A DNA stretch of 64,000 nt from a virus: IMG/VR virus record IMGVR_UViG_3300027736_000026, positions 32,001 to 96,000 of that record. One strand, given 5' to 3'. The notes under the pieces were generated by a model, which was given only the letters and a program-made list of their open reading frames with translations, searched no databases and was not told the origin of the DNA. Within the stretch, counting starts at the first letter, position 1, and every line of letters begins with the position of its first letter. Below are positions 47,653 to 61,268 of this stretch, in pieces. The position numbers were made by a program, and so were the translations under genes.

Positions 47653-48240
47653 TTATACAAAATCTTGCATCTCTTTGCTCTCAATTTTAGTCTTTAAAAA
47701 TTCAAGAGCTTTTTTGTGCAAAGTGATTGCTGTCTGATATGTGACTCCAAGTTCTTTTGATATATTCTTCCATTTGCGGGAGGACTTGTCTCCGTAATAT
47801 CTTAACAGTATTATTTTTTCAAGTCTTTTGTCTTTCATTTGACAAAGTAGATTAAAGATGTAATCTTTCTTCTCTTCAAAATCATTTGACTGTTGACAGA
47901 GATTTGCTGCTAATGTCTTTTGATTTTCATCATCAAGAGAAATTGTCCATTTGTGTTTTGTAATGTTTGTTAAACATTTGTATTTAACATGATTAGCCAG
48001 CCAAGTCGAAAACTTACTGTTCTGATTTTCATCAAAATTAAGAGTACATTTATAAATAATGTAATCTTTTTCATTGACAAGATCTTCTGGGCTTATTCCT
48101 CTTTCTTGAAGAATTTTATTGTACTTCTTAAAAATGTCAAAACAAAGAGGAGAATGCCTTTCTATAAGAGTTTTTAATGATTGGTTGCATTGATGAAGTT
48201 TTACCTTCGTTACAAGTTCGTTGTCAGTTGAGTCTATCAT
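47653..48240 (-). CDS. Phage-encoded sigma70-family factor (region 2 + region 4 HTH)
   Basis: TDNELV..LIERH..FDE..KFSTWL..; IILLRY..WKNISKELGVTYQ..HKKAL. Confidence 0.8.
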   Translation of the reverse strand: MIDSTDNELVTKVKLHQCNQSLKTLIERHSPLCFDIFKKYNKILQERGISPEDLVNEKDYIIYKCTLNFDENQNSKFSTWLANHVKYKCLTNITKHKWTISLDDENQKTLAANLCQQSNDFEEKKDYIFNLLCQMKDKRLEKIILLRYYGDKSSRKWKNISKELGVTYQTAITLHKKALEFLKTKIESKEMQDFV

Positions 48241-48856
48241 GTGTATAAAGCTTACCTTCTTTTATAAAAATGTCAAGGGTTTTTTTGACTAAATCTTTTA
48301 AATATTTTTCAGGCCATCCATGCCTCCAACAAAGAGAATAATCAGCATTTTTTCTAAGAAAAGGATCATTTCTTCTCTCATCATCGTTTGCAGGAGCGCA
48401 AACTGAACCGTCTTCAAAAAATTTTTCAACATAAATTAAAAACCCTTTATTTTCTCCCTTTAACCAGACGACTTCATCACTAGGATATTCGAAGTGTCTA
48501 ATATCAGTTACACAAAAGATATCTGACTGTTTAAAATTTTCAGATCTTTTATAAGCTTCGATTTCAGACTGAAGCTTTTCTATCCAATACCTACCTTTAG
48601 TATTTTGCCGCATTGTCCTTGCGTGATTTACTAACTCATGTCTTACTTTGTTTTTGTCTTCAGTAGAACAATTAAAAATATCAACATTGTATTTTTCTAA
48701 GATAAAAGAAAACAAGTCTTTTTTTAAAGAATCTGCCAAAGCAAATCTAATTACGTTTACTCCAAAGTCTTCTAAGCAAATTTCTTTTAGTAATTTATAG
48801 TAAGTATCCTTACCGACAGTAGCAGCACCTGCAATACCTAGAAACTGGTTAGACAT
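48224..48856 (-). CDS. Deoxynucleoside monophosphate kinase-like P-loop protein
   Basis: GIAGAATVGKDT, ALAD.LK, YWI, VTDIR..E. Confidence 0.75.
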   Translation of the reverse strand: MSNQFLGIAGAATVGKDTYYKLLKEICLEDFGVNVIRFALADSLKKDLFSFILEKYNVDIFNCSTEDKNKVRHELVNHARTMRQNTKGRYWIEKLQSEIEAYKRSENFKQSDIFCVTDIRHFEYPSDEVVWLKGENKGFLIYVEKFFEDGSVCAPANDDERRNDPFLRKNADYSLCWRHGWPEKYLKDLVKKTLDIFIKEGKLYTHDRLN

Positions 48857-48864
48857 AGTAAAGT

Positions 48865-48893
48865 ATAGTATTTAAGAAAGGCTGGTTTGTAAA
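48865..48893 (-). promoter_or_regulatory. sigma70-type promoter TTTACA-17-TACTAT
   Basis: -10 box 8 nt upstream of the kinase ATG; the -35 box sits in the loop of a hairpin made by a repeat copy. Confidence 0.5.
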
Positions 48894-48947
48894 AGGAACT
48901 GCCAGCTTTATGATTTTTCTTTGAGTTAAAATAGGAAAGGCTTGTCA

Positions 48948-49303
48948 TCTCTAAATTAAAATAGAGATTTCAAAATAATCAAGAGTTACCCATTTCAATC
49001 CTTCGCAGTCTGTTTATCAGATTTTCGGCCCTCTCAAGAGAGCCTAGCTAATGACTAACTCTTTGTTTAAGTTCTTTACCTTTGCGGGTGGGATTTCTCT
49101 TAGGACGGAACTGCCAGCTTTTTCTTTTGAGAAAAATGAGGTTGCAGCTTTTTCAAAGTCTTCTCCTTGCGGAACGTCGCCTTTTCCCGAAATGGCGTTG
49201 GATTTCTTAGATCCAGTTGACTAGGGTCTTTTTACGGGCCTGATGTCTCTGATGCGTTTGAACTGGGATATCCCCAGTAGGCTGTTCACCCAGATAAAGA
49301 ACT
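48948..49303 (-). ncRNA. Candidate large structured non-coding RNA (family not recognised)
   Basis: 460-bp ORF-free gap. Closing helices AGUUCUUUAUCU/AGGUAAAGAACU and AAGAGUUA/UAACUCUU; nested hairpins; G-U pairs and a GCAA loop favour the minus strand; upstream TTGACA-18-TAGGAT. Confidence 0.65.
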
Positions 49304-49308
49304 ACCTC

Positions 49309-49338
49309 ATCCTAGTCATGAGGTCTTGGTTTTGTCAA
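49309..49338 (-). promoter_or_regulatory. sigma70-type promoter TTGACA-18-TAGGAT for the candidate ncRNA
   Basis: Predicted start site coincides with the first base of the closing helix (~49303). Confidence 0.5.
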
Positions 49339-49732
49339 AAGTTTTTTCGCGCAAGCCGTTGAAAATTACCAGAAGGTTCTTGATGTCCTTCTCGCTGATC
49401 GAAATTGGGTTGCATCTTTCAGATTCATTTTCAATCAGAGAGCAGTAAGAATTGATTACTTCCGAGATGACGAAAGAAGTTTTGGGAGAGATGGTCACGC
49501 TTTGTTCGTATGCGTCAAACTTCTTAGAGAGAATCCAATAATTATTATTTTTAAAACTAGCCTTTTTTACGATCCCGTTCTTCTCAAATTCCTCAAGCGC
49601 ACACAACACGCAAGCCCTTTCAGATTCTGGGTTTTCTGAAATGGTAAGCAGTTTAGTGAAATCGTTCTCACAGAAACTATCATTCTGAAAGTACCATTGA
49701 TATAATTTTGTAGACGCATCTGAAATTGTCAT
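49316..49732 (-). CDS. Hypothetical protein
   Basis: Probable start MTISDAS at 49732; the longer ORF-track start overlaps the divergent gene. Confidence 0.7.
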   Translation of the reverse strand: MTISDASTKLYQWYFQNDSFCENDFTKLLTISENPESERACVLCALEEFEKNGIVKKASFKNNNYWILSKKFDAYEQSVTISPKTSFVISEVINSYCSLIENESERCNPISISEKDIKNLLVIFNGLREKTFDKTKTS

Positions 49733-49773
49733 ATTTAATAATAGAAGAATGCCAGAAAAAGCTCCAAATAAAC

Positions 49774-49802
49774 TTGACTTTTCTTTCCCGATGTGTGACA
49801 AT
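49774..49802 (+). promoter_or_regulatory. sigma70-type promoter TTGACT-17-GACAAT
   Basis: 7 nt before ATG 49810, at the strand switch. Confidence 0.55.
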
Positions 49803-49809
49803 ATTATCC

Positions 49810-50268
49810 ATGAGACTTTCTTGGCATGAATATGGTTGCATGATGGCTCTTGCTGCTTCATCTAGAAGCGAAGACCCTCACACCAAAGTCGGAGCTTGCA
49901 TTTTAAACAAAGAGGGAAGAGTTCTTTCAACCGGCTACAACGGATTGAAAAAAGGGTTCGCTGTCAAAGAGTGGATGAAGAAGGAAGAGAATCGTCCAAA
50001 GAAGCGAGAGATAATGATCCATGCGGAGACTAACGCCTTGTCATTAATAAGGAAAGGAGAGGCAGAGAGCATATGCTTGACAATTTCTCCTTGCTTTGCT
50101 TGCGCCAAGGACATAGTCGCTCATGAGATACAAAGAGTATTTTATATCAAAGAATACGAGCAATGCAATAAATTCAAAGAGGTATTTGATTTTTATAAAA
50201 TCCATTACCAAGAGTTAAAAGAAGAAAACATCTCCAAGATCAAATCTCATTTACAATCATGGCTATAG
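49810..50268 (+). CDS. dCMP deaminase
   Basis: RSEDPHTKVGA, TGYNG, HAETNA, SPCFAC. Confidence 0.9.
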   Translation: MRLSWHEYGCMMALAASSRSEDPHTKVGACILNKEGRVLSTGYNGLKKGFAVKEWMKKEENRPKKREIMIHAETNALSLIRKGEAESICLTISPCFACAKDIVAHEIQRVFYIKEYEQCNKFKEVFDFYKIHYQELKEENISKIKSHLQSWL

Positions 50269-55074: not shown

Positions 55075-55146
55075 GCCAAAATAGCTCAACGGTAGAGCGC
55101 CGTTTTTGTAAAGCGGGGGTTGCTGGTTCAAATCCAGTTTTTGGCT
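55075..55146 (+). tRNA. tRNA-Thr(TGT), CCA not encoded
   Basis: GCCAAAA/TTTTGGC acceptor; GCTC/GAGC D-arm; CCGTT-TTTGTAA-AGCGG anticodon arm; GCTGG-TTCAAAT-CCAGT T-arm. Confidence 0.92.
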
Positions 55147-55187
55147 CGAATCTTTCTAGCGGCTCCATTTTGAGTGTAAAATATAAT

Positions 55188-58685: not shown

Positions 58686-58860
58686 TGCTAAGGTCTCAAC
58701 CCCTTGCATCAGACTTTGTAAATTAAAAGACGGTTTCTGCACAGGTTGCGGAAGGTCTTGGCAGCAGATCGCTGACTGGACCCAGTATTCTGAGAAAACT
58801 AGACTAGAAATAATGGCCTCTCTGTTGATAAACGAAAAACATGAACGGAAAAGGAAGTAA
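58675..58860 (+). CDS. DUF1289 family Cys-rich protein
   Basis: TPCIRLC..CTGCGRS..I..W. Confidence 0.8.
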   Translation: MDTDAKVSTPCIRLCKLKDGFCTGCGRSWQQIADWTQYSEKTRLEIMASLLINEKHERKRK

Positions 58861-59005
58861 ACCTAGAAATTGTTTTAGCAAACGATTCAAAACCAATTAT
58901 GATGAAATTAGCTGGAATAAGCCAGCGCATCATGAACAGACCAATAAACATCATAGAACTCAAAGAAAAAGAACTTCCAAAGTATCACCAACCAAAAATG
59001 GGTGA
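58841..59005 (+). CDS. Small basic phage protein (54 aa)
   Basis: Hand-translated MNGKGSKPRN..F..NYDEI.W, a pattern I recall from other phage small ORFs. Confidence 0.5.
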   Translation: MNGKGSKPRNCFSKRFKTNYDEISWNKPAHHEQTNKHHRTQRKRTSKVSPTKNG

Positions 59006-59135
59006 CAACTTTCAAGCAGGAGACCTCCTACATCTAGTCGAAAACGAATATGTAGTGATCTCCAAAGAAAGCAATCTCTTAAAGCAGATAATTACTAAAT
59101 ACAATAAAGTATACAGAAAAAATGGAAAAAGATAA
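58932..59135 (+). CDS. Hypothetical protein
   Basis: ORF track; probable start MNRPIN. Confidence 0.5.
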   Translation: MNRPINIIELKEKELPKYHQPKMGDNFQAGDLLHLVENEYVVISKESNLLKQIITKYNKVYRKNGKR

Positions 59136-60894: not shown

Positions 60895-60940
60895 AAAAAA
60901 GTTGACAACTCCTAATTTTGCCCGATAATATTTCAAATAT

Positions 60941-61114
60941 ATGGAAAACTCTCTAAAACTAGTCCAGCAGTTGATCGAAGCCAGTTATGAGAAAGATCGT
61001 CAAGATAAGATTAACGACCCTTCTAAGATTGGAGAATCATTTTTTACTCATTATTTGAAATTACTTAAGCAGTGTATCGAAGAAGACTATGTCAAAATCA
61101 AAAAAGATTCATAA
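60941..61114 (+). CDS. Small hypothetical protein (57 aa)
   Basis: Hand-translated MENSLKLV..; preceded by TTGACA at 60902. Confidence 0.55.
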   Translation: MENSLKLVQQLIEASYEKDRQDKINDPSKIGESFFTHYLKLLKQCIEEDYVKIKKDS

Positions 61115-61268
61115 CGAATACTCTAAAGCTTGGGACGAACTTTACAAAGAGCTTCCCAAATGGAAGAAAGACATGATCGACGAGATGAAAATCTCTAAGA
61201 AAGAAGACGCTTTTTACGTTTCCTTCATAAAAGAAGTCATAAAAAAAGCAGAGAATAAAAGTTTGTGA
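61089..61268 (+). CDS. Small hypothetical protein (59 aa)
   Basis: Hand-translated MSKSKKIH..LPKWKK.. Confidence 0.5.
   Translation: MSKSKKIHNEYSKAWDELYKELPKWKKDMIDEMKISKKEDAFYVSFIKEVIKKAENKSL

What the first reader, a model, noticed from the sequence alone, without database searches (positions are those of the whole stretch)
48948..49338. Unrecognised ~350-nt multi-domain structured RNA with its own promoter
Seen: this is the only large ORF-free gap (460 bp) in an otherwise tightly packed genome. On the minus strand, TTGACA-18-TAGGAT places the start at ~49303, exactly where a 12-bp helix begins (AGUUCUUUAUCU at 49303-49292 pairs with AGGUAAAGAACU at 49081-49070), continued by GGGUG/CACCC. 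Enclosed are a GCCU/AGGC arm with hairpin ACUGGG-GAUAU-CCCAGU, a four-way junction (AGUC/GACU closing UGGAU/AUCCA, CGCC/GGCG and UUCC-GCAA-GGAG), and UUUUUCU/AGAAAAA. A second domain is closed by AAGAGUUA/UAACUCUU (49063-49056 with 48988-48981) and holds GGCUCUC/GAGGGCC and UCUG/CAGA. An AUCUCUA/UAGAGAU hairpin follows. The mismatches I checked are G-U on the minus strand and A-C on the plus strand, as expected for RNA-level selection. I see no RNase P, tmRNA, 6S or SRP signature. Inference: a phage ncRNA of possibly new family, transcribed ahead of the kinase and sigma-factor genes.
Basis: partly seen in the sequence, partly recalled or inferred. Interest (0 to 1): 0.85.

Follow-up and report, generated by a model that had tools for sequence, protein, structure and literature searches.

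The report
New knotted phage RNA beside sigma
The gene-free gap is a real gene for a large, intricately knotted RNA that a group of uncultured lake and ocean phages keeps more strictly than its neighbouring protein genes, almost always just ahead of the phage's own sigma factor, and whose job is still unknown.

Summary
The 459-bp gap (48857-49315) is real.

- **Known families:** nothing in Rfam 15 matches it.
- **Conservation:** it is 89-95% identical to diverged relatives, whose flanking genes are 76-88% identical.
- **Structure:** I collected 79 distinct copies from viral and metagenome contigs, reduced to 58 representatives. Covariation supports P1-P9, a second domain, and four knot-forming helices (P3, PKa, PKb, PKc).
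- **Context:** an ECF-like sigma gene follows on the same strand in 52 of 58 representatives, directly in 18 and after the kinase-like gene in 34. A new winged-helix protein gene precedes the RNA in 44 of 58.
- **Expression:** metatranscriptome contigs from three studies cover the RNA.
- **Unexplained:** a direct repeat inside the RNA changes in concert between clades, in 51 of 58.

My best reading is a separately transcribed, stable early RNA tied to the phage's transcription-takeover genes. A cis-acting leader is the main rival.

This scan had already met the family on other phage genomes, with the same verdict.

The parts
49309..49338 (-). Sigma-70-type promoter of the RNA: TTGACA (49338-49333), 18-nt spacer, TAGGAT (49314-49309). 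The predicted start is at or next to A49303.
   Evidence: Consensus scan, 10 of 12 matches. A -35/-10-like pair is kept at the same distance from AGUUCUUU in all clades. The start site itself is inferred, not mapped.
48865..49303 (-). The RNA gene, about 435 nt. Its 5' end is predicted from the promoter. Its 3' end is placed at the hairpin plus U-run just before the kinase start codon.
   Evidence: Covariation. It is 88.8-95.4% identical to four diverged relatives, against 76.3-88.3% for the flanking genes. Metatranscriptome contigs cover 48863-49284 (X16), 48854-49182 (X17) and 48865-49026 (X19).
49070..49303 (-). Domain 1, closed by P1 (49303-49292 with 49081-49070) and P2 (49291-49287 with 49090-49086). 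It contains hairpin P3a (49278-49273 / 49267-49262), P4 (49222-49219 / 49160-49157), P5 (49215-49211 / 49203-49199), P6 (49198-49196 / 49176-49174), the clade-specific P7 (49173-49171 / 49166-49164), P8 (49149-49145 / 49113-49109 and 49141-49140 / 49115-49114) and P9 (49136-49130 / 49125-49119).
   Evidence: Coordinates. Variant tables for P1, P2, P4 and P6 show many compensated changes. P5 is 95.8% paired and P6 is 99.4% paired.
49179..49282 (-). Knot-forming helix P3: GCCU 49282-49279 with AGGC 49182-49179. AGGC lies in the loop closed by P6. P3 crosses P4 and P6.
   Evidence: 99.6% of cells are paired. Pair types are UA:32 GC:13 CG:12 at one position and UA:47 CG:10 at another.
49186..49238 (-). 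Knot-forming helix PKb: CCCG 49238-49235 with CGGG 49189-49186.
   Evidence: 100% paired but almost invariant. There is one compensated change (C-G to U-A) in L059, and the same pair occurs in L076. This is the weakest of the four.
48946..49245 (-). Long-range helix PKa: CAUC 49245-49242 with GAUG 48949-48946. It ties the 3' tail to domain 1.
   Evidence: 98.7% paired. Four Watson-Crick variants are seen: CCAC/GUGG, CCUC/GAGG, CAUC/GAUG and CAAC/GUUG.
48997..49095 (-). Long-range helix PKc: AAUCC 49095-49091 with GGAUU 49001-48997. It ties domain 2 to domain 1.
   Evidence: 97.2% paired. Variants are AGUCC/GGACU, AAUCC/GGAUU, AGUUC/GAACU and AGUCA/UGACU.
48981..49063 (-). Domain 2: D2a (49063-49056 / 48988-48981), D2b (49044-49038 / 49033-49027) and D2c (49021-49018 / 49012-49009).
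   Evidence: D2a covaries at 6 of 6 pairs and is 89.6% paired. The outer four pairs of D2b are kept family-wide. D2c is present in 11 of 58 representatives and covaries there.
48947..48968 (-). Variable hairpin AUCUCUA (48968-48962) / UAGAGAU (48953-48947), directly 5' of the PKa 3' strand and overlapping it by three bases.
   Evidence: A hairpin with different sequences sits at this place in several clades and is absent in the largest clade (alignment A3). It was not counted formally.
49107..49121 (-). Direct repeat, copy 1 (15 nt). It forms the 3' strands of P9 and P8.
   Evidence: Exact 15-mer match to 48909-48895, and the only such pair in the window.
48895..48909 (-). Direct repeat, copy 2, in the 3' tail. 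The tail 48945-48895 resembles a partial duplicate of the P8/P9 arm.
   Evidence: The exact 11-mer of the tail copy recurs upstream in the same RNA in 51 of 58 representatives, although the 11-mer differs between clades.
48874..48909 (-). Terminator-like hairpin: AAAGCUGG 48909-48902 with CCAGCCUUU 48885-48877, followed by CUU to 48874.
   Evidence: Read from the sequence. The duplex of copy 2 with the next 45 nt has z = -1.94 against shuffles. The 3' arm can still pair in 5 of the 7 representatives of the window's clade (sequences printed). The scan did not list it as a terminator.
48865..48893 (-). Promoter-like site for the kinase-like gene: TTTACA (48893-48888), 17 nt, TACTAT (48870-48865). 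It ends 8 nt before the ATG.
   Evidence: Consensus scan, 9 of 12 matches. TTTACA-17-TAnnAT is kept in 7 of 7 representatives of the window's clade (sequences). This is a consensus match only.
49316..49732 (-). Upstream gene for a 138-aa winged-helix protein of no known family. The listed 181-aa ORF starts too early.
   Evidence: No Pfam, PHROG or NCBIfam match. Homologues start at MTIxDAS. AlphaFold model has pLDDT 90.7. Only weak matches to winged-helix proteins, E 0.02-0.08. It lies upstream on the same strand in 44 of 58 representatives.
48224..48856 (-). Downstream gene for a 210-aa P-loop kinase-like protein (dNMP-kinase-like).
   Evidence: PHROG 139, deoxynucleoside monophosphate kinase, E 3.5e-9. 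Only a sub-threshold Pfam match.
47653..48240 (-). Gene for a phage ECF-like sigma-70-family sigma factor, 195 aa.
   Evidence: TIGR02937 scores 46.2 bits against a cut-off of 42.9. Pfam Sigma70_r2 also matches.

Best explanation
The gap is the gene for a new family of large (about 410-440 nt) non-coding RNA. The RNA is compact, with two domains locked together by four knot-forming helices. Host RNA polymerase transcribes it early from its own sigma-70-type promoter, and it ends at a hairpin just before the next gene.

My best reading is that it is a separate, stable, trans-acting RNA. It belongs functionally to the phage's transcription-takeover cassette: winged-helix protein, RNA, (kinase-like gene), ECF-like sigma factor. 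It most likely acts by binding a protein of that cassette or RNA polymerase. That would make it 6S-like in logic, though not in fold.

**Shown:** the RNA-level fold, its conservation, its absence from Rfam, the gene linkage, and its presence in RNA libraries.

**Inferred:** the exact ends, that it is a separate transcript, and everything about its partner and effect.

**My odds:**
- real structured RNA: 0.95
- no known family: 0.85
- separate stable transcript: 0.6
- acts on sigma or RNA polymerase: 0.3
For: **Fold**
- 58 representatives out of 79 distinct copies. 79.5% of cells are paired against 35.6-49.2% in slid controls.
- 607 cells have changes on both sides, against at most 216 in controls. 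0 of 500 shuffles reach the observed score.
- Clean variant tables for P1, P2, P3, P4, P6, PKa and PKc.

**Strand**
- One-sided changes keep G-U pairs only on the minus strand.

**Conservation**
- The RNA is 88.8-95.4% identical to four diverged relatives. The flanking genes are 76.3-88.3% identical.
- 1-nt indels exclude a conserved ORF.

**Not a known family**
-. ARAGORN finds only tRNA-Thr.

**Own promoter kept in all clades**
-.

**Separate unit**
- A promoter-like site for the next gene is kept in 7 of 7 members of the window's clade.
- In two representatives (L204, L216) the RNA lies apart from the sigma cassette, on the other strand.
- In related phages a different RNA in the same slot ends in a strong terminator, and in the one relative read in full (L011) a new promoter follows it.

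**Linkage**
- Sigma lies downstream on the same strand in 52 of 58 representatives. The winged-helix gene lies upstream in 44 of 58.
- 6 of 6 directly following genes tested are sigma-70 family.

**Expression**
- RNA-library contigs from three studies cover the RNA and stop at 48854-48865.
Against: - No experiment shows a discrete transcript. The runs are assembled contigs, so they show neither strand nor ends, and contig breaks may simply mark where strains begin to differ.
- One RNA-library contig (X15) runs from the RNA through the promoter into the upstream gene.
- The RNA abuts the next gene. A kinase or sigma ORF opens within 65 nt of the aligned RNA end in 54 of 58 representatives.
- In one clade (L128) a hairpin plus U-run lies about 10 nt before the sigma start codon, with no room for a promoter. 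That fits a leader.
- The promoter calls are consensus matches only.
- Nothing tested here shows binding to sigma, RNA polymerase or the winged-helix protein.
- The fold is unlike 6S RNA.
- Folding energy alone is not significant (z = -1.64).
Confidence: 0.5

Rival explanations
1. It is a cis-acting leader, in the manner of an attenuator or riboswitch. The RNA is the 5' part of the kinase/sigma transcript. Its fold, perhaps on sensing a metabolite, protein or temperature, decides whether transcription or translation proceeds into the sigma gene. The second repeat copy would toggle between the core and a local hairpin.
For: - It has the same strand and is immediately upstream of kinase or sigma in 54 of 58 representatives.
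- In the L128 clade a hairpin plus U-run lies directly before the sigma start codon.
- In the window, copy 2 forms the 5' arm of a terminator-like hairpin. Its z is -1.94, and z is below -1.5 in 16 of 58 representatives.
- A repeat that must stay identical to the core's own strand is what an either/or pairing predicts (51 of 58).
- RNA-library contigs cover the RNA but not the kinase body in X16 and X19.
Against: - The toggle test is not general: mean z is -0.52, and 42 of 58 representatives are not below -1.5.
- At about 435 nt with four knot-forming helices, it is far larger than known sensing leaders (general knowledge, not tested here).
- A promoter-like site for the kinase is kept in 7 of 7 members of the window's clade.
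- In L204 and L216 the RNA is not upstream of sigma.
Confidence: 0.25
2. It is a self-standing 'ornate' RNA whose role has nothing to do with sigma. It might form an RNA-only homo-oligomer like GOLLD, ROOL or OLE, or act as a decoy against a host defence. Its position next to sigma would then only reflect early co-expression.
For: - It is large, rich in A-rich junctions and knots, phage-borne, and more conserved than the neighbouring proteins.
- The concerted direct repeat could reflect pairing between molecules. In the ornate RNAs, covariation also marks intermolecular contacts (abstract of PMC12286853).
- A tRNA gene lies next to the RNA in L063 and near it in L204.
Against: - The link to the sigma gene holds in 52 of 58 representatives across deep divergence, which is more than chance placement suggests.
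- There is no sequence or model match to GOLLD, ROOL, OLE or raiA.
- Oligomerisation was not tested.
Confidence: 0.15
3. It is a ribozyme, for example a self-processing RNA or one acting on another RNA.
For: It has a compact knotted core with near-invariant unpaired stretches: 25 invariant columns in the 110-column core alignment. This is typical of catalytic RNAs, but that is an inference.
Against: - No known ribozyme family matches.
- The helix order differs from group I introns and RNase P.
- The RNA is not inserted in a gene.
- No cleavage site is evident, and RNA-library contigs run across most of it.
Confidence: 0.05
4. It is a DNA-level element, such as a replication origin or operator cluster beside the strand switch, or a very diverged member of a known RNA family.
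For: - It lies near the point where the minus-strand and plus-strand gene blocks diverge.
- It carries a 15-bp direct repeat, with one copy abutting a -35-like box.
Against: - Compensated changes in more than ten helices, and G-U asymmetry on one strand, are RNA-level constraints.
- The repeat occurs nowhere else in the 64-kb window.
- No Rfam family gives even a consistent weak score on seven diverse members: the window and six others.
Confidence: 0.05

Closest known systems
GOLLD, ROOL, OLE and raiA-motif RNAs (large 'ornate' bacterial and phage RNAs; PMC12286853, abstract and outline read)
   Same: It is a large, highly structured, strongly conserved non-coding RNA carried by phages, found by comparative genomics, and of unknown biochemical role. 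It has A-rich junctions, and there is a hint that some covariation may not be intramolecular.
   Different: There is no sequence or covariance-model match. It is smaller than GOLLD, ROOL and OLE (sizes recalled). It is tightly linked to a sigma-factor gene and a winged-helix gene. Oligomerisation was not tested.
6S RNA (a regulator that binds RNA polymerase holoenzyme)
   Same: The proposed logic is the same: a stable RNA that acts on the transcription machinery, encoded here beside a sigma factor.
   Different: 6S is a rod of about 180 nt with a central bubble (recalled). This RNA is about 435 nt, branched and knotted. No 6S model matches. Binding was not tested.
Transcription-attenuating leaders and riboswitches, and processive antitermination RNAs such as HK022 put (recalled)
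   Same: It is promoter-proximal, on the same strand, and directly upstream of a long co-oriented gene block. The window and some clades have a terminator-like hairpin at the 3' end, and a repeated strand could support alternative pairing.
   Different: It is several times larger than such elements. The alternative-pairing test is not general. A downstream promoter-like site is conserved in the window's clade. In L204 and L216 the RNA is unlinked from sigma.
Group I intron catalytic core
   Same: It has a knotted core with several long-range helices and A-rich joiners. Some short motifs look alike by eye, but that resemblance is recalled and is only a lead.
   Different: The order of strands does not fit P3-P4-P5-P6-P7-P3'-P8-P7'. 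No Rfam intron model matches. It is not inserted in a gene: both flanking ORFs are complete and align end to end with homologues.
Sigma-E / dCas12f / guide RNA systems for RNA-guided transcription (PMC13472631, abstract and outline read)
   Same: A non-coding RNA gene is genetically linked to an ECF-type sigma factor.
   Different: No Cas12f- or TnpB-like gene lies nearby. The neighbours are proteins of 138, 210, 195, 121 and 359 aa with other or no family matches. No variable guide-like segment with a target in the window was found.

Membership tests
Any Rfam 15 family (4227 models) | Score at or above the family's gathering cut-off | tested here: not met
   On the window the only hit is tRNA at 55075-55146. 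On 18 related loci the only hit is a tRNA in L063. E-value scans of 48700-49500 and of six diverse members give only scattered chance-level hits, none inside the RNA shared by members.
tmRNA / tRNA-like | tRNA-like domain and tag reading frame detectable by ARAGORN | tested here: not met
   ARAGORN finds only tRNA-Thr at 55075-55147 in the window.
RNase P RNA | Match to RNase P covariance models, with all helices enclosed by P1/P2 and the P4 pseudoknot | tested here: not met
   No Rfam hit. About 200 nt of conserved, paired RNA lie 3' of the P1 3' strand.
6S RNA | Rod-like fold with a central bubble, and a match to 6S models | tested here: not met
   No Rfam hit. The fold is branched, with four crossing helices.
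6S RNA | Binds RNA polymerase holoenzyme | not testable with these tools
   Needs pull-down or gel shift.
Group I intron | Inserted in a host gene with exons, plus the canonical order of core helices | tested here: not met
   The flanking ORFs are complete. The strand order differs. No Rfam intron hit.
Attenuator or riboswitch leader | Same strand and immediately upstream of the regulated gene | tested here: met
   A kinase or sigma ORF opens within 65 nt of the aligned RNA end in 54 of 58 representatives.
Attenuator or riboswitch leader | Mutually exclusive terminator and antiterminator pairings conserved across the family | tested here: inconclusive
   For copy 2 against the next 45 nt, mean z is -0.52, and z is below -1.5 in 16 of 58 representatives, mostly two clades.
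Attenuator or riboswitch leader | Downstream gene has no promoter of its own | tested here: inconclusive
   A promoter-like TTTACA-17-TACTAT is kept in 7 of 7 members of the window's clade, but this is a consensus match only. In L128 there is no room for a promoter.
GOLLD / ROOL / OLE / raiA | Match to the family covariance model | tested here: not met
GOLLD / ROOL / OLE | RNA-only homo-oligomer | not testable with these tools
   Needs mass photometry or cryo-EM.
Sigma-E / dCas12f guide RNA | Adjacent dCas12f gene and a guide segment with DNA targets | tested here: not met
   No such gene among the neighbours. No extended match of any RNA segment elsewhere in the window apart from its own repeat.

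The most novel reading that the evidence does not exclude
The RNA is a cofactor of the phage's own sigma factor or of the winged-helix protein. The resulting RNA-protein complex would reprogram host RNA polymerase during takeover. That would make it a natural RNA-dependent transcription factor of a new kind, with the two identical repeat modules as paired docking sites. Alternatively, it assembles into an RNA-only multimer by swapping the repeated strand between molecules.
Probability: 0.12. Interest if true: 0.9.

Novelty: categorically new. Interest (0 to 1): 0.75.

Why it matters
Large, knotted, strongly conserved RNAs are rare. Nearly every class understood so far turned out to be a ribozyme, a sensing element or the core of an RNA-protein machine.

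This one has about 435 nt and four crossing helices. Dozens of uncultured lake and ocean phages keep it more strictly than their proteins. It sits in a fixed cassette with the phage's own sigma factor and a new winged-helix protein. That points to an RNA layer in how these abundant phages seize host transcription.

The concerted change of a direct repeat inside one RNA is itself unusual. It gives a concrete handle for experiments: mutate one copy, or swap the copies.

The family is absent from Rfam 15 and from the papers I could search, so it is open ground for structure and function work.

Tried and rejected
- **Cultured-phage relatives.** Neither the gap DNA (blastn) nor the kinase protein (tblastn) matches any of the 50,697 phage records.
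- **Whole genome.** None is held for this window.
- **Prokaryote genomes.** The 21-base pattern gave 12 stretches in 185,579 species genomes. All 12 lack the neighbouring motifs. I estimate about 11 chance matches, so these are chance. This shows only that exact pattern matches are absent, not that diverged copies are absent.
- **P1 partner.** Pairing of the 5' end with the tail (CAGAGGAA), as RNAalifold proposed, is rejected. Divergent members whose 5' end changed are compensated at the internal partner, not at the tail.
GCCU/AGGC and CGCC/GGCG are replaced.
- **Second RNA type in the same slot** (L050, L055, L058, L067, L072, L078, L081, L107). Model R1, built on the 104-position core, finds none of these 8 (best E 4.6-8.7). 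It does find one more family member, L076, at E 1.3e-24. 36 loci were searched. I therefore treat that RNA as unrelated or beyond detection.
- **Toggle model for the repeat.** Not general.
- **Guide-like targets.** No segment of the RNA matches elsewhere in the window.
- **Fold search of the winged-helix protein.** Only weak rows, E 0.02-0.08.
- **Literature.** Two full-text searches listed nothing that describes this RNA. For PMC5737381, PMC2864571, PMC8040213 and PMC11109978 I saw only the search listing.
- **RNA-library cover.** Parts of the stretch without contig cover are no evidence of silence.
Full report
**Observation**

The gap between the minus-strand ORFs ending at 49316 and starting at 48856 is 459 bp. 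It is the largest ORF-poor stretch in the window at an 80-aa cut-off. Gaps of 436 bp and 370 bp also exist.

A sigma-70-type promoter match, TTGACA-18-TAGGAT, lies at 49338..49309 on the minus strand.

Single-sequence folding gives -92.9 kcal/mol with z = -1.64 on the minus strand, and z = -1.00 on the plus strand. Energy alone would therefore not have carried the claim.

Rfam 15 at gathering thresholds finds only a tRNA in the window. A permissive scan of 48700-49500 gives only chance-level rows.

**Relatives**

Searching IMG/VR with the two flanking proteins gave close relatives. Their gap is 87.5-99.3% identical to the window's (14 of 16 loci held it).

Against four diverged relatives, the RNA is 88.8-95.4% identical. 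The winged-helix gene is 76.3-85.1%, the kinase-like gene 78.6-82.7% and the sigma gene 84.5-88.3% identical. Single-base indels rule out a conserved reading frame.

Eight close copies already showed 7 pairs with compensated changes. They also showed one-sided changes that keep U-G pairs only on the minus strand.

A profile of the kinase found 80 loci. 36 of these have at least 350 nt without an ORF upstream of the kinase. All-against-all blastn linked the window's gap to much more distant ones.

A 21-base gapped pattern from the invariant core gave:
- 39 stretches in viral contigs;
- 94 stretches in metagenome contigs, of which 80 were listed;
- 12 stretches in prokaryote genomes. All 12 lack the neighbouring motifs and match my chance estimate.

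After removing chance hits and incomplete copies, 79 distinct sequences remained. I reduced these to 58 representatives below 96% identity.

**Structure**

Variant tables on my own alignment, and the formal count on alignment A3, support:
- P1 and P2, which close a first domain;
- hairpin P3a;
- a three-way unit P4/P5/P6;
- P8/P9;
- a second domain, D2a/D2b (D2c only in some clades).

They also support four helices that cross others:

| Helix | Window coordinates | Support |
|---|---|---|
| P3 | 49282-49279 with 49182-49179 | 99.6% paired |
| PKa | 49245-49242 with 48949-48946 | 98.7% paired, four Watson-Crick variants |
| PKc | 49095-49091 with 49001-48997 | 97.2% paired, four variants |
| PKb | 49238-49235 with 49189-49186 | 100% paired, but only one compensated lineage |

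For the whole structure:
- 79.5% of cells pair, against 68.1% in shuffles and 35.6-49.2% when partners are slid.
- The covariation score is 0.331, against at most 0.116 in slid controls.
- 0 of 500 shuffles reach it.

P1, P2, P4 and P9 score lower in that count because MAFFT shifted those segments. The tables show them cleanly.

His last hairpin abuts PKa, so the RNA continues into a conserved tail.

**Ends and expression**

The promoter is kept in position in every clade, which places the start at about 49303.

In the window the tail ends in a hairpin, 48909-48902 with 48885-48877, followed by a U-run. A promoter-like site for the kinase overlaps that hairpin.

Six metatranscriptome runs hold part of the stretch. 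Laying four of them gave contigs at:
- 48863-49015 and 48988-49284 (X16);
- 48854-49182 (X17);
- 48865-49026 (X19);
- 49033-49731 (X15), which runs on into the upstream gene.

These are assembled contigs, so strand, ends and level are not shown. Breaks may also mark strain differences. I take them as presence in RNA libraries, plus a weak hint of a 3' end near 48860.

**Context**

Local profile searches on the 58 representatives show:
- A sigma gene lies downstream on the same strand in 52: directly in 18, and after the kinase-like gene in 34.
- Of the other six, four contigs end too early. In two (L204, L216) the cassette lies upstream on the other strand.
- The upstream gene is present on the same strand in 44 of 58.

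That upstream gene encodes a 138-aa protein with no family match. Its confident model (pLDDT 90.7) resembles winged-helix nucleic-acid binders only weakly.

The window's sigma is ECF-like (TIGR02937, 46.2 bits). 6 of 6 directly following genes tested in other clades are sigma-70 family.

Few genes in the window have a Shine-Dalgarno-like motif (10 of 51). Its absence before the kinase therefore says nothing.

**The repeat**

A 15-nt direct repeat (49121-49107 and 48909-48895) is unique in the window. The first copy forms the 3' strands of P9 and P8. The second lies in the tail, which looks like a partial duplicate of that arm.

The exact 11-mer recurs in 51 of 58 representatives, although its sequence differs between clades. 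Pairing between the copies cannot explain this.

I tested an attenuator-like toggle, in which copy 2 pairs either with the core or with the next 45 nt. Mean z is -0.52, and z is below -1.5 in 16 of 58 representatives. The toggle is possible in the window's clade (z = -1.94) but is not general. The repeat remains unexplained.

**What it is not**

- It is not a tmRNA.
- It is not RNase P RNA, 6S RNA, a group I intron, GOLLD, ROOL, OLE or raiA by covariance model or by architecture.
- It is not a guide RNA of the sigma-E/dCas12f kind (abstract read; neighbours; no targets).

A different RNA of about 400 nt fills the same slot in other relatives. It has covarying helices and a strong terminator (6 valid rows), and in L011 a promoter at each end. 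Model R1 does not detect it (0 of 8 loci).

**Reading**

I commit to a separately transcribed, stable early RNA that belongs to the transcription-takeover cassette and acts in trans on one of its proteins or on RNA polymerase. Overall confidence is 0.5, and about 0.3 for the partner.

The main rival is a cis-acting leader (0.25). The others are an unrelated ornate RNA (0.15), a ribozyme (0.05), and a DNA element or diverged known family (0.05).

**Novelty**

No catalogue or paper I could search describes this RNA.

Earlier agents of this scan found the same family on other phage genomes and reached the same verdict. That is not independent support.

Noticed in passing
L050:2013-2500, L067:2018-2497, L081:2017-2497, L107:958-1427, L078:1923-2467, L055:1870-2500, L058:2135-2488, L011:2542-2994: In more distant relatives the same slot (winged-helix gene, gap, kinase) holds a different ORF-free region of about 400 nt. 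In L011 it has its own TTGACA-17-TATACT promoter, and a second promoter follows the terminator. Across the set there are covarying helices and a strong CCCCCC/GGGGGG terminator. The core model of the present family does not detect it.
   Followed up: partly
window 49316-49861: The listed 181-aa ORF overlaps the plus-strand dCMP-deaminase ORF (49726-50268). Homologues show that the real start is the MTISDAS methionine at 49732, giving 138 aa. The product is a confident winged-helix fold of no known family.
   Followed up: yes
L063:2367-2439 and L204:2675-2745: A tRNA gene lies directly after the RNA in L063 and about 630 nt after it in L204. Large phage RNAs such as GOLLD are often near tRNA genes (recalled).
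   Followed up: no
L204 and L216 (whole loci): In this lineage the RNA sits after a dUTPase gene and before a conserved small hydrophobic protein (MEILENIL.../MLENILIP...). The winged-helix, kinase and sigma genes lie upstream on the opposite strand.
   Followed up: partly
window, all genes: Only 10 of 51 ORFs have a Shine-Dalgarno-like motif in the 20 nt before the start. Several starts, including the kinase's, sit within about 10 nt of a -10-like box. Translation in this phage-host pair seems largely independent of Shine-Dalgarno pairing.
   Followed up: partly
window 58686-59121 and 60895-61264: Two further stretches, of 436 and 370 bp, have no ORF of 80 aa or more. I did not examine them for RNA genes.
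   Followed up: no
L128:1060-1125, and the same place in L149, L156, L198: Two extra hairpins follow the tail in this clade (GAAGAAGUU/AACUUCUUC, then GCGUUC/GAACGC or ACGCUC/GAGCGU). The second covaries. In L128 it is followed by a U-run about 10 nt before the sigma start codon.
   Followed up: partly
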